The notes below the pieces were generated by a model that did no database searches, was not told the DNA's origin, and saw only the letters and a list, made by a program, of their open reading frames with translations. DNA of 64,000 nucleotides from Escherichia coli (lineage in GTDB: Bacteria; Pseudomonadota; Gammaproteobacteria; Enterobacterales; Enterobacteriaceae), in assembly GCF_003334405.1 (NCBI RefSeq), contig NZ_QOWM01000005.1. One strand, given 5' to 3'. Of this stretch, positions 3,244 through 47,811 are shown piece after piece. The number at the start of each line of letters is the position of its first letter. The first letter of the stretch is position 1. The position numbers and the translations under genes were made by a program.

Positions 3244-4200
3244 ATGAACCCGATTGCAGTTACCCTACTCACCGGTTTTTTAGGCGCGGGCAAAACCACC
3301 CTGCTGCGCCATATTCTTAACGAACAACACGGCTACAAGATTGCCGTGATTGAAAACGAATTCGGCGAAGTCTCCGTTGATGATCAACTGATTGGCGACC
3401 GCGCCACGCAGATCAAAACGCTGACCAACGGCTGCATCTGCTGTTCGCGCTCCAACGAGCTGGAAGACGCACTACTCGACCTGCTGGATAATCTCGACAA
3501 GGGCAATATTCAGTTCGACCGTCTGGTCATTGAATGCACCGGCATGGCCGATCCCGGCCCGATTATTCAGACCTTTTTCTCCCATGAGATTTTATGCCAG
3601 CGCTACCTGCTGGACGGCGTGATTGCGCTGGTGGATGCGGTACATGCCGATGAGCAGATGAACCAGTTCACCATCGCCCAGTCCCAGGTTGGCTACGCCG
3701 ACCGTATTCTGCTGACGAAAACCGACGTCGCAGGCGAAGCAGAGAAACTGCGTGAACGCCTGGCGCGCATCAACGCCCGCGCACCGGTCTACACCGTTAC
3801 CCACGGCGATATCGACCTGGGCCTTCTGTTCAACACCAACGGTTTTATGCTGGAAGAAAACGTCGTCAGCACCAAACCGCGTTTCCACTTTATCACGGAC
3901 AAACAAAACGATATTTCGTCGATTGTGGTGGAACTGGATTACCCGGTAGATATCAGCGAAGTTTCCCGGGTGATGGAAAACCTGCTGCTGGAGTCGGCGG
4001 ATAAACTACTGCGTTACAAAGGGATGCTATGGATTGACGGCGAACCTAACCGCCTGCTATTCCAGGGCGTCCAACGCCTCTACAGCGCCGACTGGGACCG
4101 CCCGTGGGGCGATGAAAAACCGCATAGCACGATGGTGTTTATCGGGATTCAGTTGCCGGAGGAAGAGATTCGGGCAGCGTTTGCGGGGTTGAGGAAGTAA
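3244..4200 (+). CDS. yjiA: COG0523/CobW-family GTPase (metal-binding)
   Basis: ORF 3160..4200; start at MNPIAVTLLTGFLGAGKTT (Walker A GAGKTT); CICC metal-binding motif. Confidence 0.9.
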   Translation: MNPIAVTLLTGFLGAGKTTLLRHILNEQHGYKIAVIENEFGEVSVDDQLIGDRATQIKTLTNGCICCSRSNELEDALLDLLDNLDKGNIQFDRLVIECTGMADPGPIIQTFFSHEILCQRYLLDGVIALVDAVHADEQMNQFTIAQSQVGYADRILLTKTDVAGEAEKLRERLARINARAPVYTVTHGDIDLGLLFNTNGFMLEENVVSTKPRFHFITDKQNDISSIVVELDYPVDISEVSRVMENLLLESADKLLRYKGMLWIDGEPNRLLFQGVQRLYSADWDRPWGDEKPHSTMVFIGIQLPEEEIRAAFAGLRK

Positions 4201-5992: not shown

Positions 5993-7225
5993 ATGGCGGG
6001 ATTAAAAGCAACGCATGCCGCCACGCTGTTTTTCCCGATGGAGTTGATTTTGTATGATTTTGCCGCGTACCTGTCGACGGACCTGATTCAGCCGGGGATC
6101 ATTAATGTGGTCCGTGATTTTAATGCCGATGTCAGTCTGGCCCCGGCAGCCGTCAGTCTCTATCTCGCGGGCGGTATGGCGTTACAGTGGCTGCTGGGGC
6201 CGCTTTCCGACAGGATTGGCCGCAGGCCGGTGCTGATTACCGGGGCGCTAATATTTACCCTTGCCTGCGCTGCGACAATGTTCACAACGTCTATGACACA
6301 GTTTCTTATCGCGCGTGCAATTCAGGGCACCAGTATCTGTTTTATTGCCACCGTTGGTTATGTCACGGTGCAGGAGGCGTTCGGCCAGACAAAAGGGATC
6401 AGGTTGATGGCGATTATCACCTCCATCGTACTGATTGCGCCGATTATTGGCCCGCTTTCCGGCGCAGCTCTGATGCACTTTGTGCACTGGAAAGTCCTTT
6501 TTGCCATCATTGCGGTTATGGGGTTTATCTCATTTGTTGGCTTACTGCTGGCGATGCCAGAGACGGTGAAGCGCGGCGCGGTTCCATTTAGCGCCAAAAG
6601 CGTCTTGCGCGATTTTCGTAATGTCTTTTGCAATCGGCTGTTCCTCTTTGGCGCAGCAACCATCTCTTTAAGCTATATCCCAATGATGAGTTGGGTGGCT
6701 GTCTCGCCGGTGATCCTGATCGACGCGGGCGGCTTAACAACTTCGCAGTTCGCCTGGACACAGGTTCCGGTGTTCGGCGCGGTGATTGTCGCGAATGCCA
6801 TCGTGGCGCGTTTCGTTAAAGATCCAACCGAACCGCGCTTCATCTGGCGTGCCGTACCCATTCAACTGGTCGGCCTCGCGCTGTTGATTATCGGCAATCT
6901 GCTGTCACCGCACGTCTGGCTGTGGTCGGTGCTGGGCACCAGTTTGTATGCTTTCGGGATTGGTTTGATCTTCCCGACCTTATTCCGCTTTACGCTTTTT
7001 TCCAATAACTTACCGAAAGGGACCGTCTCCGCATCGCTGAATATGGTGATCCTGATGGTGATGTCTGTCTCGGTCGAAATCGGCCGCTGGCTGTGGTTTA
7101 ACGGCGGTCGCTTGCCGTTTCATCTGTTAGCCGTCGTGGCGGGCGTTATCGTCGTTTTCACCCTGGCAGGATTGCTTAATCGCGTGCGCCAACATCAGGC
7201 TGCCGAGCTGGCGGAGGAGCGGTGA
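5993..7225 (+). CDS. mdtM: MFS multidrug efflux transporter
   Basis: ORF 5966..7225; 12-TMS MFS protein recognisable as MdtM (YjiO); start chosen to give 410 aa. Confidence 0.85.
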
Positions 7226-7265
7226 TTTTTGCGCGATCCTGCCGTCAGGCTCTATTCTTAACGTT

Positions 7266-8546
7266 ATGAATAAACTCATTGAACTCAGACGCGCCAAAAT
7301 GTTGGCGCTCTCTTTACTGCTTATCGCCGCTGCTACCTTTGTCGTTACGCTGTTTTTGCCGCCCAATTTTTGGGTGAGCGGCGTGAAGGCGATTGCTGAA
7401 GCGGCGATGGTCGGCGCGCTGGCGGACTGGTTTGCGGTGGTGGCGCTGTTTCGCCGCGTGCCGATTCCGATCATTTCTCGTCATACGGCGATTATCCCGC
7501 GTAATAAAGACCGGATTGGCGAAAATCTCGGCCAGTTCGTGCAGGAAAAATTTCTCGATACCCAGTCGCTGGTGGCATTGATTCGACGTCACGAACCGGC
7601 GTTGTTGATTGGCAACTGGTTTAGTCAGCCGGAGAACGCCCGCCGCGTTGGTCAGCATCTGTTGCAGATCATGAGCGGTTTTCTTGAACTGACCGATGAT
7701 GCGCGTATTCAGCGCCTGCTTAAGCGCGCGGTCCATCGGGCGATTGATAAGGTCGATCTTTCCGGCACCAGTGCGTTGATGCTGGAGAGTATGACCAAAA
7801 ACAATCGTCATCAGGTGCTGCTGGATACGCTGATCGCACAGTTGATCGCCCTTCTCCAGCGCGATAAATCGCGCAAGTTTATTGCCCAGCAAATTGTTCG
7901 CTGGCTGGAGAGCGAGCATCCGCTGAAAGCCAAAATTTTGCCTACTGAATGGCTGGGCGAACATAGCGCGGAGTTGGTTTCTGACGCGGTGAATTCTTTG
8001 CTTGATGATATCAGCCGCGATCGTGCGCATCAGATCCGCCATGCATTTGATCGCGCCACCTTTGCCCTGATCGACAAGTTGAAAAACGATCCGGAAATGG
8101 CAGCGCGAGCCGATGCCGTAAAAAGTTATCTGAAAGAAGATGAAGCTTTTAACCGCTATCTCAGTGAATTGTGGGGGGATTTACGGGAATGGCTGAAAGC
8201 GGATATCAACAGTGAAGATTCTCGTGTGAAAGAACGTATCGCGCGGGCGGGTCAATGGTTTGGCGAAACGTTAATTGCCGATGATGCCTTGCGGGCATCG
8301 TTAAATGGTCACCTGGAACAAGCCGCGCACCGCGTCGCGCCTGAGTTTTCCGCATTCCTGACGCGCCACATCAGCGATACAGTAAAAAGCTGGGATGCTC
8401 GGGATATGTCGCGGCAAATCGAGTTAAATATCGGCAAAGATCTGCAGTTTATCCGTGTCAACGGTACGCTGGTTGGCGGTTGTATTGGGCTAATTTTATA
8501 TTTGTTGTCGCAGCTCCCGGCCTTGTTCCCCCTCAGCAATTTTTAG
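7266..8546 (+). CDS. yjiN: DUF445-family inner membrane protein
   Basis: 426 aa ORF, conserved neighbour of mdtM. Confidence 0.8.
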
Positions 8547-37838: not shown

Positions 37839-38489
37839 TTAATTTGATTTATTCGCATCCATCAGCGCTTTTAACTGCTCCGGCGTAAACGGTGGTTTGC
37901 GTCGGTGCAACATCGCATGGCAATTAGGGTACACAGGCAGCAAATCATTAACTGGATCCAGCTGGTAATCCTCTTTAATGGCTGACAGCGGCACCAGGTG
38001 ATGCACATGGATAAAGCCTTCAGCGATATCACCATAGATCTTCACCAGATCAACACCGCATACGTTGCACTGGCATCCATGATGTTCGACCGCTTTATCT
38101 CGGGCCTTTTTATCGCGTTCATAGCGGTTTACTGTCACCTTTATCGCCGCACCTTCAAGGTATGTCTCCTGCGACGGCAACTCATCCGGGAACAGAACGT
38201 CGGCTATGGGAGCCGCAGCGGCTTTATCCAGATGAATATGAAATCCCTGCTCTATGAGTAGCTTGACACATTTAGATTTTATTCCGCCGGTGAAATCCGC
38301 AGGGGTAAATTGCGTCCCCGTCATCAATGTCGCTGCGATGCCAGCAATCGCCTTCGAGGGGTAACGTCGGCCATGATATTCAATCTCATACAACCGCGCA
38401 GGCTGGAACTGATGAGTTTCTCCCGCATCCCATAAATGGATAGCTTCGATGATATACCGCCGCGGAAGATGATCAGGGAGTTTATTCAT
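37839..38489 (-). CDS. HNH-family nuclease with an uncharacterised ~135 aa N-terminal domain
   Basis: 216 aa; C-terminal GCQCNVCG...IHVHHLVPL...NDLLPVYPNCHAMLH is a zinc-ribbon HNH motif; convergent with nanS. Confidence 0.6.
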   Translation of the reverse strand: MNKLPDHLPRRYIIEAIHLWDAGETHQFQPARLYEIEYHGRRYPSKAIAGIAATLMTGTQFTPADFTGGIKSKCVKLLIEQGFHIHLDKAAAAPIADVLFPDELPSQETYLEGAAIKVTVNRYERDKKARDKAVEHHGCQCNVCGVDLVKIYGDIAEGFIHVHHLVPLSAIKEDYQLDPVNDLLPVYPNCHAMLHRRKPPFTPEQLKALMDANKSN

Positions 38490-38568
38490 GGAGAATGTCC
38501 TTATACGTTCTCAGAACAGGCAGCAAAAAAACAAATGAGATCAAGGTAATATATCTTCACTTGCAGGC

Positions 38569-38811
38569 TTGAACAGCAGAAAATTTGCGAGCATGATCGC
38601 AATTATTTCACTGCCAGGGATATCAATAGCTTCCAGTAAATCGCTACAGCAGGCAATTGCCAATATAAAAATCTGGCACAAGGGTGAACAGCGCGCGCCG
38701 CATAAGCCATTGTTATTGCTATACGTATTAGCGGGATACCTGAATGGACATCCGCGCCTTTTCGATTATTGTAGTGGAACAGTCTACGAGGATGCAGTTC
38801 GAAGTGAGTAA
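38569..38811 (+). other. unassigned 80 aa ORF divergent from the HNH gene
   Basis: Contains ...KIWHKGEQRAPHKPLLLLYVLAGYLNGHPRLF...; no confident family assignment. Confidence 0.25.
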
Positions 38812-39255
38812 GTAAAGGTTGCTGGAAACGATCAATGCCGCCATACAATGATTTTTTAGGATCAACAATGAGTAATAAAAACTACGAAAGTCACCGCAAA
38901 GCGATTGTTAGTAAAGGTATACCACCCGCTCTATTAAATAGGCTCACCAATTCGGATGTTCAGGTGATCAATACCTTCTTAACACGAGTGAGCAAACTGG
39001 AACTATCTCAACAAGAGAAAGACTGGATCATAAAAATCATCTCTATGGTTTAGACAATTTCAGCCTTGTAGCCTTTCAAGGGTTTTGTGTGGGTACAAAC
39101 ATTATCGAATCGGGGTATAGCCGCAGCTGTAGCTGTATCCACATCAGTAAGTTGATGTAGGTTGACTTAGGTTGAGCGAAAAATAGCGAAAAGCCTTGTG
39201 TGGCGCGGATTTCAGTCATAAAAAAACGTCCGTTGATGTCTATTGATGTTCCGAT

Positions 39256-39293
39256 GGTGCGAAGGTGCAAAGGTGCGAAGGCCGGACTCAAAC
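39256..39293. repeat. degenerate tRNA-Leu 3'-end-like sequence with a partial tandem duplication; probable island attachment-site remnant
   Basis: ggtgcgaaggccggactcaaac resembles the reverse complement of a tRNA-Leu acceptor/T-arm end (TGGTGCCGAAGGCCGGACTCGAACC); ggtgcgaagg also occurs immediately upstream. Confidence 0.4.
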
Positions 39294-39770
39294 ATGTGAC
39301 TTAACCTCATGATTTAAAATTGTTAATAATAAACAATATCATCTTATACCAACACAGATACCAACACGAAAAATCACTGGTTTTCGGCATCGAACCAGGA
39401 CAATCAGCTCCTGATTGAGATACCGAGCTCTGTTACTCGTCATCTTCCTCGACAGGCTTCATTGCATCAAGTAGTACTCGCACCATCGCGATAGAACCAA
39501 TCCGGATAAAAGCATCTTCTCCATCTATATCTGTTAACTGATATCGCTCACTTGATGCCGGATAATTGTGTCGATTTGCAGCAGTGAACTCTTTCGTACA
39601 GCCAGAATGCGGCGGATGCTGGTTGAGCAGATAACGTCCGTATTCTCGTTGACCACTTCCGGACGGTAGGCTGTGATATCAGACATAATCGATATTCCTT
39701 TTTGCAGATAAATGAAAATGCCAGCCCTGTTCAGGCTGGCGTCAGTGGAATGAAGTCTGGTGAGTAAGAC

Positions 39771-39968
39771 TCACCGGTTCTGGTGCTGAAGCTGCAGTTG
39801 GCGCAGGGTACGGATATCCTCTCTGGCCTGTTCGATACAGGGCAACAGTGCTGCTGAATCCGTTTTATCCTCATTGTTGTCAAAGATAATTCCCGATTCG
39901 CAGTCGATATTGTCCTGCAGCCACGCAATCAGAATATCCAGTGCGGTTTCCGTGGTTAATGATTTCAT
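39771..39968 (-). CDS. small DUF957-like island protein
   Basis: 65 aa MKSLTTETALDILIAWLQDNIDCESG..., typical last gene of CP4-type toxin-antitoxin modules. Confidence 0.4.
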   Translation of the reverse strand: MKSLTTETALDILIAWLQDNIDCESGIIFDNNEDKTDSAALLPCIEQAREDIRTLRQLQLQHQNR

Positions 39969-39979
39969 GTTGTTCCTGG

Positions 39980-40468
39980 TTACCAGTTGAAAGTGGGTAA
40001 ACCCGGCAGGCATTCAGCGCTGGCATCCAGATGAATGAGACTGACGCCATAACGTCGGGTAAGTGTGATAACCAGACGACGGAACGTTTTTGACAGCCCC
40101 AGGCGTTTAAGCCGCAGAACCGGATATGACCACGCATCGGTACGTAACAGATATCCGCTACCTGTGAAATGAATCCATTCTGATTCACCAACGTCACTGG
40201 TCTGATGCGACAGCGAGTACAGCCAGGCGTTATCCTTTTCCGTGATATGTGCGGTACTGCAGCGTATGCCGGCAAGGGTTGCAAACGGTGGTAGTGTGCA
40301 GGTTGACTGTTGGTCGGATTCCTCCACCACGCGGAGTGAATAACCGTTTTCAGCGACCTTGTTAATCAGTTCAGTGAGATTAACACCATCGACGTCAACG
40401 ACAATTCGCCCCATGTTCAGTGCCTGCACATTAATTCTGTCGGCTTCCAGCATCAGGGAAAGTTTCAT
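39980..40468 (-). CDS. YeeW-like (DUF5983-type) protein
   Basis: 162 aa, start overlaps the toxin gene stop by 4 nt. Confidence 0.45.
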
Positions 40469-40839
40469 CGTTTCTCCGGATGCTTACCCAGGGTAATGTT
40501 ATTTACCGTTCTGTAATTGTCGCGGGTCATCAGGCCGGTCGCCCTGCGAGCCCGGAGGATATCAATACTGTTTATTAACTGAGAGCGGGGACAAGTGCTG
40601 AATCCCGGCTGGTCGGTACGCACCAGCGCGTATTTTTCCACGAGAAAATTCACCGCATCACACAGTGAAATGCCAGCTTCAATATGCTGCTCAATCACAC
40701 GTTCATCGGCGAACGGTGTGTCATTCAGTGTAAGGCCGTAATGCTGGCCCAGTAGTCGGGAGAGCAGAGTCTGCCAGATGGTGACGGGAGACGGGCAGCT
40801 CGATGCCTCCCGTACGTGTGTATCGGGTAATGTTTTCAT
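40465..40839 (-). CDS. CbtA/YkfI/YpjF-family toxin
   Basis: 124 aa; [45 protein letters not shown] highly similar to recalled CbtA. Confidence 0.8.
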
Positions 40840-40928
40840 ACTGAAGGTTTTCCTGATATGCAGAGATGAAAAATGGAAAAGTGGCGTGGTGAAAGCACCA
40901 GGCCGGAGCAGAAGGTTATTCCGGTGGT

Positions 40929-41297
40929 TTACTTTTTCGTTTCGGGCGTCGGATAAACAGCCAGATAAACGTAACCACCGCTACCGAGAGTGTCAGCTTT
41001 GCAGGTCAGACCTTTTGCATACAGCGTGACGGTATGCTGATGGCGGGGATTCAGTTCACCGCTGGTGAGCATGAGTTCCAGTTGTTTCATCAGCAGCGGA
41101 AAGGCCTGGTCCAGGTGGTACGCATCTGCATCGCTGAACAGGCCTCTGATACCGGCGCGGTCGGCAAGGTAATGCAGGCGGTTACCCTCCTGCACCAGAC
41201 GGGCGCCGAAACAGGGCGTCACTGTGCAGGGTAGTCTCCACCAGGGATGGTCGTCATTGTCATCGGGATGCGTTGTCCCGGAAAGTGTGTCTGACAC
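40929..41297 (-). CDS. CbeA/YeeU-family antitoxin
   Basis: ORF 40929..41405 trimmed to GTG start (VSDTLSGTT...) for 122 aa; [34 protein letters not shown]. Confidence 0.8.
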
Positions 41298-41459
41298 GAT
41301 AAAATCCTCACAGAAAATCGGTGAATGATAGTTTAACGATGACGGGTCAGCCGGCGCGCAGACCGGCTTCGGTAAAGGTGTATTCGTTGATGAGCAGGAC
41401 CTCATCCACAGCGGCGTCTGAGCTCAGCCAGTCGTACTCGTTTTCCGGGTGACGGAACA

Positions 41460-41681
41460 TCAGTTCAGGGTGACGCTCATCAGCCGGACATACGGACCAA
41501 AACTGTCCTTACGGCGTTCTGCAAACACGGCCAGCACACCGGGAATATCCTGCACTTCACGACCGGTATACGCTTCAGCACTGCCGTGCCAGCGGTATTT
41601 GCCGGTACAGAACGGAAAAAGACGGGATGCCGGATGCTGACGGTGAATACGCATGGCTTCGCCACGGGTGATGATTTTCAT
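41460..41681 (-). CDS. YeeT-like (DUF987) protein
   Basis: 73 aa MKIITRGEAMRIHRQHPASRLFPFCTGKYRWHGSAEAYTGREVQDIPG... Confidence 0.65.
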   Translation of the reverse strand: MKIITRGEAMRIHRQHPASRLFPFCTGKYRWHGSAEAYTGREVQDIPGVLAVFAERRKDSFGPYVRLMSVTLN

Positions 41682-42149
41682 AGTGGGATACCTCTGAAGA
41701 CAGAAGATAAAAGTGAAAACAGGTGTGATGTGGTTGTGACGGGTTAAAGCAGACCATGTTCGGCAAAGGAGAAAACCTGGCTGCCACCGACTATCAGATG
41801 GTCCGGCACCCGGATAGCTGGAGGTACCGTCATGAGAGTTGAGCAGAATAATTTCAGGGACATGTTCTCCGTTTATCTCTCCGGCCCGCCGCAGACGCAG
41901 CATGTGTTTTGTGTATCCCCGGCGGCCCGGGTCGCGCACACGGGTCTGGCAGGCGAAGAATGGCTGAAAGCCTTCCCGCTGCAGGCTTTCCAGTACGGTG
42001 ATGGTGGGGATGTACGTATAGTTCTGGCTTCGGGACGTGTGTTTATCTTCCCCGAAAATCCCCGGCACATAGTGCATCAGTTCTTCGTGTGTCAGCGGAC
42101 GGTCACGGCGTATCTGGTTCGCATAACCAAAACGACTGGCTAGTCGCAT
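41682..42149 (-). pseudogene. 5' fragment of a DUF932-like (YfjQ-type) gene, frameshifted and fused in-frame to the yeeT-like ORF
   Basis: First ~120 codons of ORF 41460..42149 (MRLASRFGYANQIRRDRPL...LLNSHDGTSSY) look DUF932-like, then lose resemblance. Confidence 0.4.
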
Positions 42150-42560
42150 AATTTGCTCCTTATCGGTGGTTAAGATTTACTGGTGTAATAAATGAAAAAG
42201 CCACGTCTCCCGGAGAAGACGCGGCCTGATGGGTGAAATGAATGACGTTTATTGTCTGAGAAGACCGTCACTGGCGAGCCGCGTATTAAGCACCTTTCCG
42301 GCATCGGGTTCAGAATTCCGGCAGCGCCAGCGTCGCTGACCTTCCGCGTTGCGGATAACCCGACGGAAATGCATTCCCGGGTCATCCTGGATAAACACAT
42401 TGCGGTAAGCGGTTATGACAGCAACCGCCTGCCCGTATGAGAAAGATCCTTCAGCCAGGACATACTCTGTGTAACCCGGCATATCTGTTTTCTCCTGATA
42501 AATAAAAAGCCTCTGCCACGCGTTGTGACAGAGGCTGAAGCATGAAACTGACTTCAGGGA

Positions 42561-43016
42561 TCAGTTAACGTTTTTTCCGGAAACGGTAATCAGCAGTGGA
42601 TGGTAGTCCTGGGGATTGAAAACCGATAACGGCAGACTGACACGATGGCCGTTACTTTCTTCAGTTGCTTTGATGATTTCGGTTGTGGCGACATTTTCCA
42701 CGCACTCCGTTTCCAGAAATGCGTCTGTGGTTCGCGTGGCATTACTGTCACCAAAAGCTTCCGTTTCCATTTTTCTGGTCACCAGCGTCTGACCATATTT
42801 GTCTTTGAGTTGCAGAGTGATGGTGAGGGGGCCAAATCCTTCATCGTTTCCGCCATTATCCAGCCGGAACTGGTAAGCACAAATATTTCCCGGGAGCCAT
42901 ATCGTATCTGTATTGCGTATACTGATGTAACGTTGATCCTGTGCCCGGAGTGGGGCAGACCACGTTAACCCCAGAATGAAGGCGGTAATCATGCAGGTTT
43001 TGAACAGGTGAATCAT
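42561..43016 (-). CDS. hypothetical secreted protein
   Basis: 151 aa with N-terminal signal-peptide-like hydrophobic segment ending ...APLRAQ. Confidence 0.45.
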   Translation of the reverse strand: MIHLFKTCMITAFILGLTWSAPLRAQDQRYISIRNTDTIWLPGNICAYQFRLDNGGNDEGFGPLTITLQLKDKYGQTLVTRKMETEAFGDSNATRTTDAFLETECVENVATTEIIKATEESNGHRVSLPLSVFNPQDYHPLLITVSGKNVN

Positions 43017-43091: not shown

Positions 43092-44057
43092 TTATGCCGG
43101 TAACTCCGGGGGTAATGCTTCTTCCAGTCGGTTAACCATATTGCCGAGATGGGATGCATCATATTCCATGACGGGGCGTTGCCTGATGATACTGACCACC
43201 AGTGGTTTGATTAACATATTGGTCGCGGCCCGTTGTTGTATACCGGCGGCGAAAATGATCTCCAGAGCATTCTGATCGATAACACGGGCCAGATTCTCGT
43301 TCAGATTTTCAATCTCATGTCCGGTCAGCAGGAAACTGCCGGCAAGCCATGTCACCTGCTCCTGAATCATTGCCAGAATTTTGACGCGATCTTCTTCAAC
43401 CAGCGCTCCGGCAATTTTTCCTGATACAGCGGAGGCAATCATTCCCCCCAGAACACCGCCAACCACACGCCCTGTCAGTGCACCAAATGGTCCCAGTGGA
43501 CTGAACAGTATTCCGCCCGCCACTGACCCGACAGCACCACCTGCCACACCGGAAGATGCCACGGCAAGATTCCTGATGAACTGCGTACCGGAGATCCGTC
43601 CCCGCAACATTTTGATCATGTCAGGGCCGGTTGTGACAGCTACCAGTGCCAGAGATGTCACCAGCGTACCCTTCATCACTTTGTTCAGGGCACTGATATT
43701 TCCTGCACCGGTCCCCTTCTGAAGAGCCAGTCGAACAGTCGGGCTGGCAGTCGAAAAATCAATGTGCTTCAGCATACCCTGAACAACACTGAGCCGGTGG
43801 AGTTGCTGGGTTGTGACGTAGACAGCCAGTGTGCGGGTGAAGGTTTTTCCTGCCTGGACAGCAGCTGTCTGCAGGGCAGCATCGCGATCGCCGGTGCTGA
43901 GCCAGAAGACCGATGCCGTCAGGGCAAAACTGATCCCTCCGGCCGCCAGACTGACAACCGAACCCTCGGCAATATCATAAGTGACCGATTCGATGGTCCC
44001 GAACCGGGTGATATTACGGGCCTGAGTATAAGTCAGATGAGCCATACACGCGGCTTC
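43092..44057 (-). pseudogene. C-terminal fragment of an unidentified glycine-zipper-rich island protein, fused in-frame to a truncated IS66 tnpC
   Basis: Last ~320 codons of ORF 43092..45068; [41 protein letters not shown]; unlike IS66 TnpC C-termini. Confidence 0.35.
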
Positions 44058-45950
44058 CGTTATTCTGCCGGATTCGTATAACGCCCGGTAACCACCGTAA
44101 GCATCGGCCTGAAGCACACCGCTGTAACCGGCCAGGTGATTTTGTGGATGGATACCTTTCCGGTCCGGACTGTACGCGAACCAGACCGCCGGGGGCATCT
44201 GTGAACCGGCGTTACGGTCATCACGGACGTAGACCCACAGCCGGGCTGTCCGGGTTTTACCGCTGCCCGGCTCCTGGACCGGGACGGGGATATCATCAGC
44301 ATGGACTTTACCGGGCATCAGCACATACTGGCGCAGGACGTCATACAGCGGCTCCAGCAGTTCAGCAACAGCACCTGTCCAGCGCCCCAGTGTGGCACGG
44401 CTCAGCTCCACTCCCTGACGACGGTATATTTCTGACTGGCGGTATAACGGCAGATGGTCTGCATATTTCCCGGTGACAACATGGGCCAGAAGCCCCGCTC
44501 CGGCATAACTGCGTGCAATGGGTTTTGAAGGTACTGGTGCCTGCACGATATGGTCGCACCGGCAACAGGCCTGTTTCGGACGTTGTGTTTCGATAACCTT
44601 AAAGGCGCTGCTGATAAGCTCCAGTTGCTCTGACACATCACATCCCAGAGAACTGAGTTCACCACCACAGGCAGGACAGCATTCCTCTTCCGGCCGGATA
44701 ACCCGGGTTTCACGGGGAAGTGAGGCCGGTAACGGTTTACGGGCTGAAGACTGGCGCAGGGCGGATGGCAGTACCGGGTCATATTGCTCACCCAGCGTTT
44801 CCGCCATTTCTTCCTGAAGTGCGCTGATTCGCTCCTGTGCTTCCTGTATCTGCCGTTCGGTTTTTGCACGAAGTTTTTCTGAGCTTTTACCGAACTGCAT
44901 ACGTTGCAGTTTCGCAACCAGCGCCTTCAGCCGGTTGATTTCGGAAGCATAAGCCGCCACCCGCTGTGAGAGCAGGCGGTTGTATTCAGCCATCTGGCGG
45001 ATGGTGTCCTGTTGCGTCTGCAACAGTGCCCGCAGGCGGGCGTTCTCATGAGCAAGTGAGGTGTCCATATCCTCACTTTACAACGGGTTATATGCGGATT
45101 CCAGCGCGTTCCGTTCGTTTCGGGTGCTTCCAGTTGATACCTTCAAGAAGCATGGATAACTGAGCCGGAGTAAGGTGCACCTTGCCGTCACGGGTGACTG
45201 GCCAGACGAAGCGGCCCCGCTCCAGGCGTTTGGTGAAGAGGCACAGTCCGTCACTGTCAGCCCACAACACTTTTATCTGGTCACCCCGGCGTCCGCGGAA
45301 GATGAACAGGTGTCCGGAGAACGGGTCATCCTTCAGGACGTTCTGAACTTTTGATGCCAGGCCGTTAAAGCCATTTCGCATATCGGTGATACCTGCAACC
45401 AGCCAGATACGCGAACCTGCAGGGAGAGATATCATCAGTGGCTGCTCCCTTTTATTTCGCGGATAAGTGTCTGTAATAACGCCGGCGTCAGTTTACCTTT
45501 AAGCCTGAGAGTTCCGGCCGGCAGAACCAGCTCACAACACAGACTGTCGGACGGTGTATTTATCTGCTCTGGTTCCTGTGCGGGGGCCGGGATTTTATTA
45601 TCCGGCTCCGGCGTTAACGTCACGGGAAGCAGTGCCGGCATATTTTTTCCGGAAGGCAGCAGGCCACCTTTCCGGTATTGATGGCGCCAGTTGAAGAGCA
45701 GGTTATCGTTGATTCCGTTTTCCCGGGCGATCTGCGCCACACAGGCTCCGGGCTGCAGTGACTGCTCCACTAAGGCGATTTTAAACTCATAAGGGAAGTT
45801 GGGCCGCCGGGGACGTTTTTTTACCACGGGGGCTTCGGATATAACGGTGCTTTCAGGACGTACGACTGGTACCGTGGAAAATTGTCCGTAACCCTCAGTA
45901 TCAGCTGTGAGGTAACGTTCCGGCACGGGACGCTCCGCTTCAATGGCAAT
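44058..45950 (-). mobile_element. IS66-family element, copy 1, truncated at the tnpC 3' side
   Basis: tnpA-like (45435..45926), tnpB (45088..45435; WLVAGITDMRNGFNGL) and first ~337 codons of tnpC (CCPACGG zinc-finger, through EAACMAHL); boundaries approximate. Confidence 0.65.
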
Positions 45951-47811
45951 GTCAGCGAAAAGCTCCTGACTCTGCTGATACAGGAACTGAAGCGATGATC
46001 CCGTTACCTTCCGGGACCAAAATTTGGCTGGTTGCCGGTATCACCGATATGAGAAATGGCTTCAACGGCCTGGCTGCGAAAGTACAAACGGCGCTGAAAG
46101 ACGATCCCATGTCCGGCCATGTTTTCATTTTCCGGGGCCGCAGCGGCAGTCAGGTTAAACTGCTGTGGTCCACCGGTGACGGACTGTGCCTCCTGACCAA
46201 ACGGCTGGAGCGTGGGCGCTTCGCCTGGCCGTCAGCCCGTGATGGCAAAGTGTTCCTTACGCAGGCGCAGCTGGCGATGCTGCTGGAAGGTATCGACTGG
46301 CGACAGCCCAAGCGGCTGCTGACCTCCCTGACCATGCTGTAAATCTCTTTATCCTGGTTGTCACAGAATAAGCCCGGTAAAATACGGGCTTATGAACGAC
46401 ATCTCTTCTGACGACATCTTCCTGCTAAAACAGCGCCTGGCCGAACAGGAAGCGCTGATCCACGCCCTGCAGGAAAAGCTGAGCAACCGGGAGCGCGAAA
46501 TAGACCATCTGCAGGCGCAGCTGGATAAACTCCGCCGGATGAACTTCGGCAGTCGTTCCGAAAAAGTCTCCCGCCGTATCGCACAAATGGAAGCCGATCT
46601 GAACCGGCTTCAGAAAGAGAGCGATACGCTGACTGGTAGGGTGTATGACCCGGCAGTACAGCGTCCGTTGCGTCAGACCCGCACCCGTAAGCCGTTCCCT
46701 GAATCACTACCCCGTGACGAAAAGCGACTGTTGCCTGCGGCGCCGTGCTGCCCGAACTGCGGCGGTTCACTGAGCTATCTGGGCGAGGATACCGCCGAAC
46801 AGCTGGAGTTGATGCGTAGCGCATTCCGGGTTATCCGGACGGTACGGGAAAAACATGCCTGTACTCAGTGCGATGCCATCGTGCAGGCACCTGCACCTTC
46901 GCGGCCCATCGAGCGGGGTATCGCCGGACCGGGGCTGCTGGCCCGCGTGCTGACCTCGAAGTATGCAGAGCACACCCCGCTGTATTGCCAGTCAGAAATA
47001 TACGGCCGGCAAGGTGTGGAGCTGAGCCGTTCACTGCTGTCAGGCTGGGTGGATGCATGCTGCCGGCTGCTGTCTCCGCTGGAAGAGGCGCTTCATGGCT
47101 ATGTCATGACTGACGGCAAACTCCATGCCGATGATACCCCGGTCCAGGTACTGCTGCCGGGTAATAAGAAGACGAGGACCGGGCGGTTGTGGGCGTATGT
47201 TCGTGATGACCGCAATGCCGGGTCAGCGTTGGCACCTGCAGTGTGGTTCGCTTACAGCCCGGACAGAAAAGGCATCCATCCGCAGACTCATCTTGCTTGC
47301 TTCAGCGGTGTGCTGCAAGCGGATGCGTACGCCGGGTTCAACGAGCTGTATCGCAATGGTGGGATAACGGAAGCTGCCTGCTGGGCTCATGCCCGCCGAA
47401 AGATCCACGATGTGCACGTCCGCATCCCGTCAGCACTGACGGAAGAAGCCCTGGAGCAGATCGGTCAGTTGTACGCCATAGAGGCGGATATAAGGGGAAT
47501 GCCGGCAGAGCAGCGGCTTGCTGAACGTCAGCGAAAAACGAAACCGCTGTTGAAATCCCTGGAAAGCTGGTTGCGTGAAAAGATGAAGACCCTGTTCTTC
47601 GGCTCTGGCCATGGTGGTGAGCGGGGAGCGCTACTGTACAGCCTGATCGGGACGTGCAAACTGAATGACGTGGATCCAGAAAGCTACCTTCGCCATGTGC
47701 CTGGCGTCATAGCAGACTGGCCGGTCAACCGGGTCAGCGAACTGCTTCCGTGGCGCATAGCACTGCCAGCTGAATAACACATCCCCGTCAATACGGCCCT
47801 CGCTGTACGCT
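45951..47811 (+). mobile_element. IS66-family element, copy 2, lacking most of tnpA
   Basis: tnpA C-terminal tail (...EKLLTLLIQELKR), tnpB 45995..46342, tnpC 46392..47777 (461 aa), terminal GTAAGCG-type end at about 47805-47811; TnpB only ~75% identical to copy 1. Confidence 0.65.

What the first reader, a model, noticed from the sequence alone, without database searches (positions are those of the whole stretch)
39771..42149. Decayed CP4-type toxin-antitoxin module with an in-frame DUF932::yeeT fusion
The minus-strand order DUF932 fragment, yeeT-like, cbeA-like antitoxin, cbtA-like toxin, yeeW-like, DUF957-like matches cryptic-prophage modules, but the antirestriction and radC-like genes normally between DUF932 and yeeT are missing. 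The DUF932 N-terminus runs without a stop into yeeT, indicating a deletion. Toxin and antitoxin genes look intact.
Basis: partly seen in the sequence, partly recalled or inferred. Interest (0 to 1): 0.4.

Follow-up and report, generated by a model that had tools for sequence, protein, structure and literature searches.

The report
Deletion scar in CbtA/CbeA toxin-antitoxin module
This is one copy of a well-known, many-times-repeated E. coli island module in which a rare 1,445-base deletion removed two and a half genes and left a chimeric open reading frame next to an intact CbtA/CbeA toxin-antitoxin pair; this is ordinary gene decay.

Summary
On the minus strand, window 39771-42149 carries a DUF932 N-terminal fragment, YeeT (DUF987), CbeA/YeeU antitoxin, CbtA toxin, DUF5983 (YeeW-like) and DUF957.

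E. coli O26:H11 11368 and B7A hold the same locus at 99.96-100% identity, but with 1,445 extra bases. The window has lost DUF932 codons 112-272, the whole antirestriction gene and the first 135 codons of the RadC/JAB gene (yeeS). The junction lies at window 41815/41816 and shows 2 bp of microhomology.

The ORF stays open only because the yeeT reading frame happens to be stop-free for 67 codons upstream. The "fusion" is therefore DUF932(1-111), then a 44-residue nonsense linker, then YeeT(73).

The toxin, antitoxin, YeeT, DUF5983 and DUF957 proteins are identical to alleles seen on at least 1,000 contigs each. The fusion is seen on only 3-5 contigs, and none of 5,426 complete E. coli genomes has this junction.

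Chimeric ORFs from other deletions in this module are common, and K-12 CP4-44 itself carries a 3.3-kb deletion here. The copy lies between fec and nanS and is not one of the three K-12 CP4 elements. Verdict: real, ordinary, low interest.

The parts
41815..42149 (-). DUF932 gene fragment: codons 1-111 plus 2 nt. The last 2 nt, TA, are the junction microhomology.
   Evidence: 100% identical to L001 6452-6786 of O26:H11 11368, where the gene is 272 aa. Pfam DUF932 covers model positions 1-78 of 227 only.
41814..41816 (-). Deletion junction. 1,445 bp are missing relative to intact alleles (L001 about 6787-8231), with a 2-bp TA microhomology.
   Evidence: The BLAST blocks overlap by 2 nt. The junction sequence is CCTCCAGCTA|TCCGGGTGCC.
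41744..41814 (-). Last 71 nt of the RadC/JAB gene (yeeS), read in the wrong frame as part of the chimeric ORF.
   Evidence: Equals L001 8232-8302, the 3' end of the annotated JAB domain gene at 7826-8302.
41682..41743 (-). yeeS-yeeT intergenic spacer, translated as part of the 44-residue linker. It contains the yeeT Shine-Dalgarno-like AGAGG.
   Evidence: Equals L001 8303-8364. In the intact allele the yeeT frame is open for 67 codons upstream, with no start codon in that stretch.
41460..41681 (-). yeeT (DUF987), a complete 73-aa gene with its own ATG.
   Evidence: Pfam DUF987 covers the full model. It is 97% identical to K-12 YeeT. The exact protein is on at least 1,000 contigs.
41347..41460 (-). 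Remnant (last ~35 codons; a 37-aa ORF here) of a 215-aa gene that lies between yeeT and cbeA in fuller copies of the module. This is an older 553-bp deletion scar, at 41459/41460.
   Evidence: The 37-aa ORF matches the C-terminus of P0094/P0095. The gene sits between DUF987 and CbeA in L011-L013. The window lacks L013 4983-5535. The scar is shared with O26 and B7A.
40929..41297 (-). cbeA/yeeU-family type IV antitoxin, 122 aa, GTG start, full length. It carries R21 where O26 and K-12 have G.
   Evidence: PDB 2H28 (YeeU) matches at E=4.7e-75 over residues 1-121. It is 93% identical to K-12 CbeA and identical to the B7A allele. The exact protein is on at least 1,000 contigs.
40465..40839 (-). cbtA-family toxin, 124 aa, full length. 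F65 is retained and position 15 is C.
   Evidence: Pfam CbtA_toxin on the identical contig. It is 88% identical to K-12 CbtA. The exact protein is on at least 1,000 contigs.
39980..40468 (-). DUF5983 (full-length YeeW-like) gene, 162 aa. It overlaps the cbtA stop by 4 nt.
   Evidence: Pfam DUF5983_N and DUF5983 and RefSeq annotation. K-12 YeeW is a 64-aa truncated form.
39771..39968 (-). DUF957 gene, 65 aa.
   Evidence: Identical to WP_000839281.1, annotated as a DUF957 domain-containing protein. The exact protein is on at least 1,000 contigs.
39534..39686 (-). N-terminal fragment (50 aa) of the DUF4942 gene that ends the module in fuller copies.
   Evidence: Annotated as an incomplete DUF4942 pseudogene in O26 and B7A. 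Full 263-280-aa genes are present in L011-L013.
42249..42482 (-). DUF905 gene, 77 aa, immediately upstream of the DUF932 fragment.
42561..43016 (-). irmA-family gene, 151 aa.

Best explanation
Window 39.5-45 kb holds one paralogous copy of the widely repeated E. coli island module. Its gene order is agn43/flu, yeeR-like, irmA, DUF905, DUF932, antirestriction, radC/yeeS, yeeT, (215-aa gene), cbeA, cbtA, DUF5983, DUF957, DUF4942. This copy sits between fec and nanS.

In this strain lineage, an illegitimate recombination event at a 2-bp microhomology deleted 1,445 bp. The loss covers DUF932 codons 112-272, the whole antirestriction gene and radC/yeeS codons 1-135. The yeeT reading frame is fortuitously stop-free for 67 codons upstream. 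The truncated DUF932 ORF therefore reads through 44 nonsense codons into yeeT and gives a 229-aa chimeric ORF. That ORF is best regarded as a pseudogene by-product, and YeeT can still be made from its own start codon.

The downstream type IV toxin-antitoxin pair is untouched. By homology to the characterised K-12 proteins, CbtA would block FtsZ and MreB polymerisation. CbeA would counteract it by acting on the filaments rather than by binding the toxin.

Shown here: the gene order, the deletion end points, the open frame, and the intactness and commonness of the TA alleles. Inferred: that the fusion is non-functional, that the TA pair is still expressed and active, and the deletion mechanism.
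For: The deletion was mapped to the nucleotide against alleles that are 99.96-100% identical on both sides.

Pfam shows only a third of the DUF932 domain and a complete DUF987.

The yeeT frame is open for 67 codons upstream in the intact allele and holds no start codon, so the read-through is a property of the sequence and not a new feature.

The exact fusion protein is on only 3-5 contigs, from independent assemblies (GCA_024592625.1 and Logan ERR3469010). No junction match was found in 5,426 complete E. coli genomes, in JGI metagenomes or in GTDB representative genomes.

Every intact component allele is on at least 1,000 contigs.

Many other rare chimeras use the same open frame: RadC::YeeT, antirestriction::YeeT and another DUF932::YeeT.

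K-12 CP4-44 has its own 3,336-bp deletion across the same segment.

In the paralogous CP4-6 module (yafX-ykfG-ykfH with YafW/YkfI), the three upstream genes did not neutralise the toxin, so by analogy their loss should not unbalance the pair (PMC5371832). The CbtA mechanism comes from PMC5624674.
Against: No expression data are available here. The σ70 consensus scan found no minus-strand promoter in 39500-42700, so how cbeA-cbtA is transcribed after the deletion is unknown.

An independent, nearly coincident deletion in strain ET82 also gives an in-frame DUF932N::YeeT ORF. This leaves a small possibility that the fusion or the deletion site is not purely accidental.

CbeA carries G21R at a position that is G in all three K-12 paralogues. 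The allele is common, however, and co-occurs with an intact toxin in B7A.
Confidence: 0.93

Rival explanations
1. The DUF932-to-yeeS interval contains a deletion hot spot, perhaps promoted by an imperfect inverted repeat that brings the two break sites together. On this view the event is recurrent and mechanistically driven, not a one-off accident.
For: Two other complete genomes carry deletions in paralogous copies at other chromosomal sites. These are B-1109 (near php/ggt) and ET82 (next to tRNA-Ser/ghrA). Their junctions are different but nearly coincident: the left break is within 24 bp and the right break within 8 bp of the window's. The two breakpoint regions form a 17-nt imperfect inverted repeat, CTACCAGATGCTGCCGG against CCGGACCATCTGATAG. 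It scores higher than 96% of random DUF932/yeeS window pairs.
Against: The junction search could only detect deletions ending within about 30 bp of the query junction, so the coincidence is partly a selection effect. There were only 2 such cases among more than 15,000 module copies. The inverted repeat is marginal (p about 0.04, untested for multiple windows) and only one arm is deleted. Other chimeras break at scattered positions. A pattern scan found none in metagenomes or representative genomes.
Confidence: 0.15
2. The DUF932N-linker-YeeT chimera is a selected, functional new protein, for example an N-terminally extended YeeT with altered activity or regulation.
For: The ORF is intact, with a good Shine-Dalgarno sequence (AAGGAG) upstream of the DUF932 ATG. 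An independent in-frame equivalent of 223 aa exists in ET82.
Against: It retains only 78 of 227 DUF932 model positions, and the linker is out-of-frame or intergenic sequence. It is seen on 3-5 contigs only. The B-1109 equivalent is out of frame. Two of three in frame is compatible with chance (about 0.26). Analogous ORFs are annotated as pseudogene fragments by PGAP. Many unrelated partners fuse to YeeT through the same open frame.
Confidence: 0.04
3. The junction is an assembly artefact: a collapse or chimera between paralogous module copies in a short-read assembly.
For: E. coli genomes carry a median of 3 copies of this module, a classic cause of mis-assembly. The only genome source is a draft assembly.
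Against: Both flanks are 100% identical to the same single locus in B7A and O26, not to different paralogues. The junction joins two non-homologous sequences through 2 bp only, which assemblers do not create. The same protein and context were recovered in independent assemblies, one from NCBI and one from Logan ERR3469010, with 5 contigs read in all.
Confidence: 0.02
4. The short form is ancestral, and the 1,445 bp found in other strains is an insertion.
For: None beyond formal symmetry of the comparison.
Against: An insertion would have to complete three ORFs exactly: the DUF932 C-terminus, the antirestriction gene and the RadC N-terminus. The long form occurs in thousands of genomes and in all paralogous islands, including K-12 CP4-57 and CP4-6. 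The short form truncates a Pfam domain.
Confidence: 0.01

Closest known systems
CbtA/CbeA (YeeV/YeeU) type IV toxin-antitoxin system of E. coli K-12 cryptic prophage CP4-44
   Same: The gene order yeeT-cbeA-cbtA-yeeW is the same. Identities to K-12 are YeeT 97%, CbeA 93% and CbtA 88%, and all are full length. CbeA matches the solved YeeU structure 2H28 at E=4.7e-75. CbtA keeps F65, the residue required for FtsZ binding.
   Different: The chromosomal site differs: fec-nanS rather than the CP4-44 site. YeeW is full length (162 aa against 64 in K-12). CbtA has C15 where K-12 has R15, and CbeA has R21 where K-12 has G21. The upstream deletion is a different one: 1,445 bp here, from DUF932 to yeeS, against 3,336 bp in K-12, from yeeR to yeeS.
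Intact flu-yeeR-irmA-aec module copy at the fec-nanS locus of E. coli O26:H11 11368 and B7A
   Same: It is the same locus with the same flanks (IrmA and DUF905 upstream; DUF4942 fragment, HNH endonuclease and nanS downstream). Identity is 99.96-100% outside the deletion.
   Different: Those strains keep full DUF932 (272 aa), the antirestriction gene (161 aa) and JAB/RadC (158 aa). B7A has an IS2 in DUF5983 and O26 has an IS600 in the yeeR-like gene. The window instead has an IS66-associated truncation that removes agn43 and the 5' part of the yeeR-like gene.
YpjF/YfjZ (CP4-57) and YkfI/YafW (CP4-6) modules of E. coli K-12
   Same: They share the core order antirestriction, RadC, DUF987, antitoxin, toxin, with a DUF932 gene further upstream. 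The toxins share the FtsZ/MreB mechanism (PMC5624674).
   Different: Protein identity is only 59-67%, and 79-80% for the DUF932 N-terminus. Those modules keep the antirestriction and RadC genes (lfgA/lfgB; yafX/ykfG). They are flanked by tRNA or attachment sites of P4-like prophages.
Other chimeric ORFs produced by decay of this module
   Same: Examples are RadC::YeeT (P0113), antirestriction::YeeT (P0139, on 51 contigs; P0127) and DUF932::YeeT (P0107). P0113, P0127 and P0139 enter YeeT through the same open alternative frame (...SRWQPGFLLCRTWSALT...).
   Different: The upstream partners and break points differ. P0107 joins DUF932 residue ~243 directly inside YeeT with no linker.

Membership tests
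CbtA/CbeA (YeeV/YeeU) type IV toxin-antitoxin pair | Toxin gene encoding a CbtA_toxin (PF06755) domain protein of about 110-125 aa | tested here: met
   124-aa ORF at 40465-40839. Pfam CbtA_toxin on the identical contig. 88% identical to K-12 CbtA over the full length.
CbtA/CbeA (YeeV/YeeU) type IV toxin-antitoxin pair | Antitoxin gene (CbeA_antitoxin, PF06154) immediately upstream on the same strand | tested here: met
   122-aa ORF at 40929-41297, 89 nt upstream of cbtA. Pfam CbeA_antitoxin. Matches PDB 2H28 YeeU at E=4.7e-75.
CbtA/CbeA (YeeV/YeeU) type IV toxin-antitoxin pair | Toxin residues shown to mediate target binding in K-12 CbtA: F65 for FtsZ and R15 for MreB | tested here: inconclusive
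   F65 is present. Position 15 is C, the substitution that abolishes MreB binding in K-12 CbtA (PMC5624674). [quoted passage not shown]
CbtA/CbeA (YeeV/YeeU) type IV toxin-antitoxin pair | Toxin expression is growth-inhibitory and is rescued by the antitoxin without toxin-antitoxin binding | not testable with these tools
   Needs expression and rescue assays.
K-12 cryptic P4-like prophages (CP4-44, CP4-57, CP4-6) | Conserved module order DUF932, antirestriction, RadC, DUF987, antitoxin, toxin | tested here: not met
   The antirestriction gene is absent, RadC is reduced to 71 nt and DUF932 is truncated. The order of the surviving genes matches.
K-12 cryptic P4-like prophages (CP4-44, CP4-57, CP4-6) | Location at one of the three K-12 CP4 sites, next to a tRNA/tmRNA attachment site | tested here: not met
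   There is no tRNA or tmRNA in the 64-kb window. The module lies between fecIRA and nanS-nanM-nanC-fimB. It is a paralogous copy, not one of those three elements.
DUF932 (PF06067) protein | Complete DUF932 domain (227 model positions; proteins of about 272 aa) | tested here: not met
   Only model positions 1-78 are matched, at residues 36-112. The intact allele is 272 aa.
DUF987 (PF06174) / YeeT | Complete DUF987 domain with its own start codon | tested here: met
   Model positions 1-65 of 65 are matched at residues 157-221. The ATG is at 41681 with AGAGG upstream. The 73-aa protein is identical to WP_000692345.1.

The most novel reading that the evidence does not exclude
Deletions joining DUF932 codons ~105-112 to yeeS codons ~136-139 recur independently in paralogous islands: this window, ET82 and B-1109. 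The cause could be a structure-prone hot spot (an imperfect inverted repeat at the two break sites). Alternatively, loss of the antirestriction and RadC genes with retention of a DUF932N::YeeT read-through product could be favoured. Two of the three events keep the frame.
Probability: 0.07. Interest if true: 0.3.

Novelty: already known. Interest (0 to 1): 0.08.

Why it matters
It matters little beyond correct annotation. The 229-aa ORF should be treated as a pseudogene scar plus an intact yeeT, not as a new two-domain protein.

The case shows how the stop-free alternative frame upstream of yeeT repeatedly produces spurious "fusion proteins" in databases. It also shows that the reference CP4-44 module is itself a deletion derivative.

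The strain offers a natural test of whether cbeA-cbtA expression depends on the upstream antirestriction/radC segment. That is a minor question.

Tried and rejected
1. I looked for the exact junction elsewhere. A 301-bp junction query against 5,426 complete E. coli genomes gave no identical junction. A gapped DNA pattern spanning the junction gave 0 hits in JGI metagenome contigs and 0 in GTDB representative genomes.

2. A NCBIfam scan of ten ORFs returned only IS66 transposase for the 658-aa chimera. These small island proteins have no NCBIfam models.

3. An Rfam scan of 36-50 kb found no RNA family.

4. The promoter scan found no minus-strand σ70 consensus site in the module. Counts were at chance level, so no statement on transcription is possible.

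5. A repeat search in the module found only short pairs, mostly chance-level.

6. I considered that C15 in CbtA makes it an FtsZ-only toxin. I rejected this as unsupported because YpjF and YkfI carry C15 naturally.

7. I considered that CbeA G21R inactivates the antitoxin. I rejected this as unlikely because the allele is on at least 1,000 contigs and co-occurs with an intact toxin in B7A.

8. I tested whether direct repeats explain the deletion. Only 2 bp of microhomology is present, and the direct-repeat score at the break sites is at background level.
Full report
**What is in the sequence**

On the minus strand, window 39771-42149 contains five consecutive ORFs:
- 41460-42149: a 229-aa ORF.
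- 40929-41297: a 122-aa ORF from a GTG start.
- 40465-40839: a 124-aa ORF.
- 39980-40468: a 162-aa ORF.
- 39771-39968: a 65-aa ORF.

Pfam on the first ORF finds DUF932 at residues 36-112, which covers only model positions 1-78 of 227. It also finds a complete DUF987 at residues 157-221. On a public contig that is 100% identical to window 31460-52149 (GCA_024592625.1), the precomputed Pfam calls for the next ORFs are CbeA_antitoxin, CbtA_toxin and DUF5983. RefSeq names the 100%-identical proteins in E. coli O26:H11 11368 and B7A as YeeU-family antitoxin, CbtA-family toxin, DUF5983 and DUF957.

**The deletion**

A megablast of window 39500-42600 against 5,426 complete E. coli genomes gives full-length hits rounding to 100.0% identity. 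These hits span 4,546 bp in the subject against 3,101 bp in the query.

Pairwise BLAST against O26:H11 11368 (locus L001) gives two blocks:
- 786/786 identical, to L001 6001-6786.
- 2,316/2,317 identical, to L001 8230-10546.

The blocks overlap by 2 nt. The window therefore lacks 1,445 bp. The junction is CCTCCAGCTA|TCCGGGTGCC at window 41815/41816, with a TA microhomology.

In the reference, the lost DNA encodes DUF932 codons 112-272, the whole 161-aa antirestriction gene and codons 1-135 of the 158-aa JAB/RadC gene (yeeS). The last 71 nt of yeeS survive at window 41744-41814.

The DUF932 fragment ends after 111 codons plus 2 nt, so it enters the yeeS remnant in a frame other than the yeeS frame. 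It runs through that remnant and the 62-nt spacer, 44 codons in all, and meets the yeeT ATG in frame.

In the intact allele the yeeT frame is already open for 67 codons upstream and contains no start codon. The read-through is thus a latent property of the sequence that any suitably phased deletion exposes. YeeT keeps its own ATG and an AGAGG motif.

**How common it is**

The exact 229-aa protein is on record on only 3-5 contigs. These come from independent assemblies, one from NCBI and one from Logan ERR3469010, which argues against an assembly artefact.

No complete E. coli genome has this junction. A gapped junction pattern found nothing in JGI metagenome contigs or in GTDB representative genomes.

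By contrast, the window's YeeT, CbeA, CbtA, DUF5983 and DUF957 proteins are each on at least 1,000 contigs.

**State of the toxin-antitoxin pair**

Both genes are full length. Compared with K-12 CP4-44, YeeT is 97% identical, CbeA 93% and CbtA 88%. Identity to the CP4-57 and CP4-6 paralogues is 59-67%. CbeA matches the solved YeeU structure 2H28 at E=4.7e-75 over residues 1-121.

The single nucleotide difference from O26 (window 41237) makes CbeA G21R. This position is G in all three K-12 paralogues. The R21 allele is also the B7A allele and is itself common.

CbtA keeps F65, which is needed for FtsZ binding, but has C at position 15. In K-12 CbtA the R15C change abolishes MreB binding (PMC5624674). 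[quoted passage not shown]

From the K-12 literature, the expected mechanism is direct inhibition of FtsZ and MreB by the toxin (PMC5624674). The K-12 type IV pairs are expressed at low level and are not autoregulated. In the paralogous CP4-6 module, the three upstream genes (yafX, ykfG, ykfH) did not neutralise the YkfI toxin (PMC5371832). By analogy, losing the antirestriction and RadC genes should not unbalance the pair. That CbeA acts by bundling FtsZ and MreB filaments rather than by binding the toxin is from my own knowledge of the literature, not from a paper read here. Transcription after the deletion could not be assessed, because the σ70 consensus scan was at chance level.

**Context and family**

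The module lies between fecIRA and nanS-nanM-nanC-fimB. There is no tRNA in the window. It is therefore a paralogous copy of the repeated "flu-yeeR-irmA-aec-yeeS-yeeT" cluster, parts of which are described as present in 4-6 copies in many E. coli genomes (PMC6480617). A median of 3 places per genome was found. It is not one of the three K-12 CP4 prophages.

Decay of this segment is the rule:
- K-12 CP4-44 itself lacks 3,336 bp relative to B7A. The loss covers the yeeR C-terminus, irmA, DUF905, DUF932, the antirestriction gene and the first 8 codons of yeeS.
- All alleles at this locus (window, O26, B7A) have lost 553 bp containing most of a 215-aa gene that sits between yeeT and cbeA in fuller copies. 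The loss leaves a 37-aa remnant ORF at window 41347-41460.
- The terminal DUF4942 gene is truncated.
- Upstream, an IS66 transposase gene truncated after codon 343 is joined in frame to the last 316 codons of the yeeR-like gene, at window 43092-45068 with the junction at 44039/44040.

A homology search with the fusion protein returns many other rare chimeras from the same module. They include RadC::YeeT, antirestriction::YeeT, DUF932::antirestriction, DUF932::CbtA and a second DUF932::YeeT. Of the four I read, three (P0113, P0127, P0139) enter YeeT through the same open alternative frame.

**Is there a hot spot?**

Two complete genomes carry near-coincident deletions in paralogous copies at other loci:
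- B-1109 retains 8 bp less at the junction than the window.
- ET82 retains 24 bp less at the junction than the window.

The ET82 event also yields an in-frame DUF932N::YeeT ORF of 223 aa. The B-1109 event is out of frame.

The two break regions form a 17-nt imperfect inverted repeat that scores above 96% of random window pairs. This is suggestive but weak for four reasons:
- The search could only find junctions within about 30 bp of the query.
- Only 2 cases turned up among more than 15,000 module copies.
- The other chimeras break at scattered sites.
- Two of three events in frame is compatible with chance.

I keep the hot spot as a minor rival (0.15) and as the basis of the novel case.

**Verdict**

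The feature is a rare, lineage-specific deletion scar in a well-known module next to an apparently intact CbtA/CbeA pair. It is ordinary gene decay and of low interest.

Noticed in passing
window 43092-45068 (-), junction at 44039/44040: A second in-frame chimeric ORF of 658 aa. An IS66-family transposase N-terminus (residues 1-343; NCBIfam transpos_IS66 covers model positions 5-230 of 387) is fused to the last 316 codons of the yeeR-like 838-aa 'hypothetical protein' of B7A. The joint is not at an IS end, so it is a deletion that also removed agn43. The exact protein is on 6 contigs and is deposited as 'IS66 family transposase'.
   Followed up: partly
window 41347-41460 (-): A 37-aa ORF overlapping the yeeT stop codon is the C-terminal remnant of a 215-aa gene with no Pfam family, which sources label 'antitoxin of toxin-antitoxin stability system'. 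In fuller module copies (L011-L013) that gene sits between yeeT and cbeA. 553 bp are missing here, and also in O26 and B7A.
   Followed up: yes
L008 (E. coli K-12 CP4-44), yeeR/yeeS boundary at locus 7300-7303: The reference CP4-44 module is itself a deletion derivative. It lacks 3,336 bp present in B7A: the yeeR C-terminus, irmA, DUF905, DUF932, the antirestriction gene and the first 8 codons of yeeS. Its left break (B7A L002 4513) is only 49 bp from the window's IS66 junction (L002 4562).
   Followed up: partly
window 40795-40797 (-), CbtA codon 15: The CbtA allele has Cys at position 15. R15C in K-12 CbtA specifically abolishes MreB binding (PMC5624674). YpjF and YkfI also have C15, so the effect in this background is unknown.
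   Followed up: partly
window 41237 (-), CbeA codon 21: This is the only nucleotide difference from O26:H11 in 2,317 bp, and it gives CbeA G21R. The position is G in K-12 CbeA, YfjZ and YafW. The R21 allele is shared with B7A and is on at least 1,000 contigs.
   Followed up: partly
window 42508-42536, 42198-42227 and 39720-39740 (-): Three terminator-like G+C-rich hairpins lie after irmA, after DUF905 and after DUF957. The first two are followed by TTT(T)CATTTAT / TTTTATTTAT and the third by ATTTTCATTT. The tails after DUF905 and DUF957 share the 16-nt repeat ATAAATGAAAA(T/A)GCCA on the + strand. They may be a recurrent intergenic punctuation element of the module.
   Followed up: no
L003 (E. 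coli B-1109) 4121-4170 and L004 (E. coli ET82) 4121-4160: Independent deletions in paralogous module copies join DUF932 codon ~105-112 to yeeS codon ~137-139, within 24 bp and 8 bp of the window's break points. The ET82 version is also an in-frame DUF932N::YeeT ORF (223 aa).
   Followed up: partly
window 37839-39300: An intact 216-aa HNH endonuclease with a ScoMcrA_N domain lies next to a fragment annotated in O26 and B7A as 'phosphorothioated DNA-binding restriction endonuclease'. Further fragments (DUF4942, HTH regulator) follow. This is a decayed defence-gene patch between the module and nanS.
   Followed up: no
window 45088-47777: Two IS66-family elements lie back to back in opposite orientation. 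One has tnpA-like (163 aa) and tnpB (115 aa) genes on the minus strand. The other has tnpB (115 aa) and a full 461-aa transposase on the plus strand. They sit directly upstream of the chimeric 658-aa ORF.
   Followed up: no
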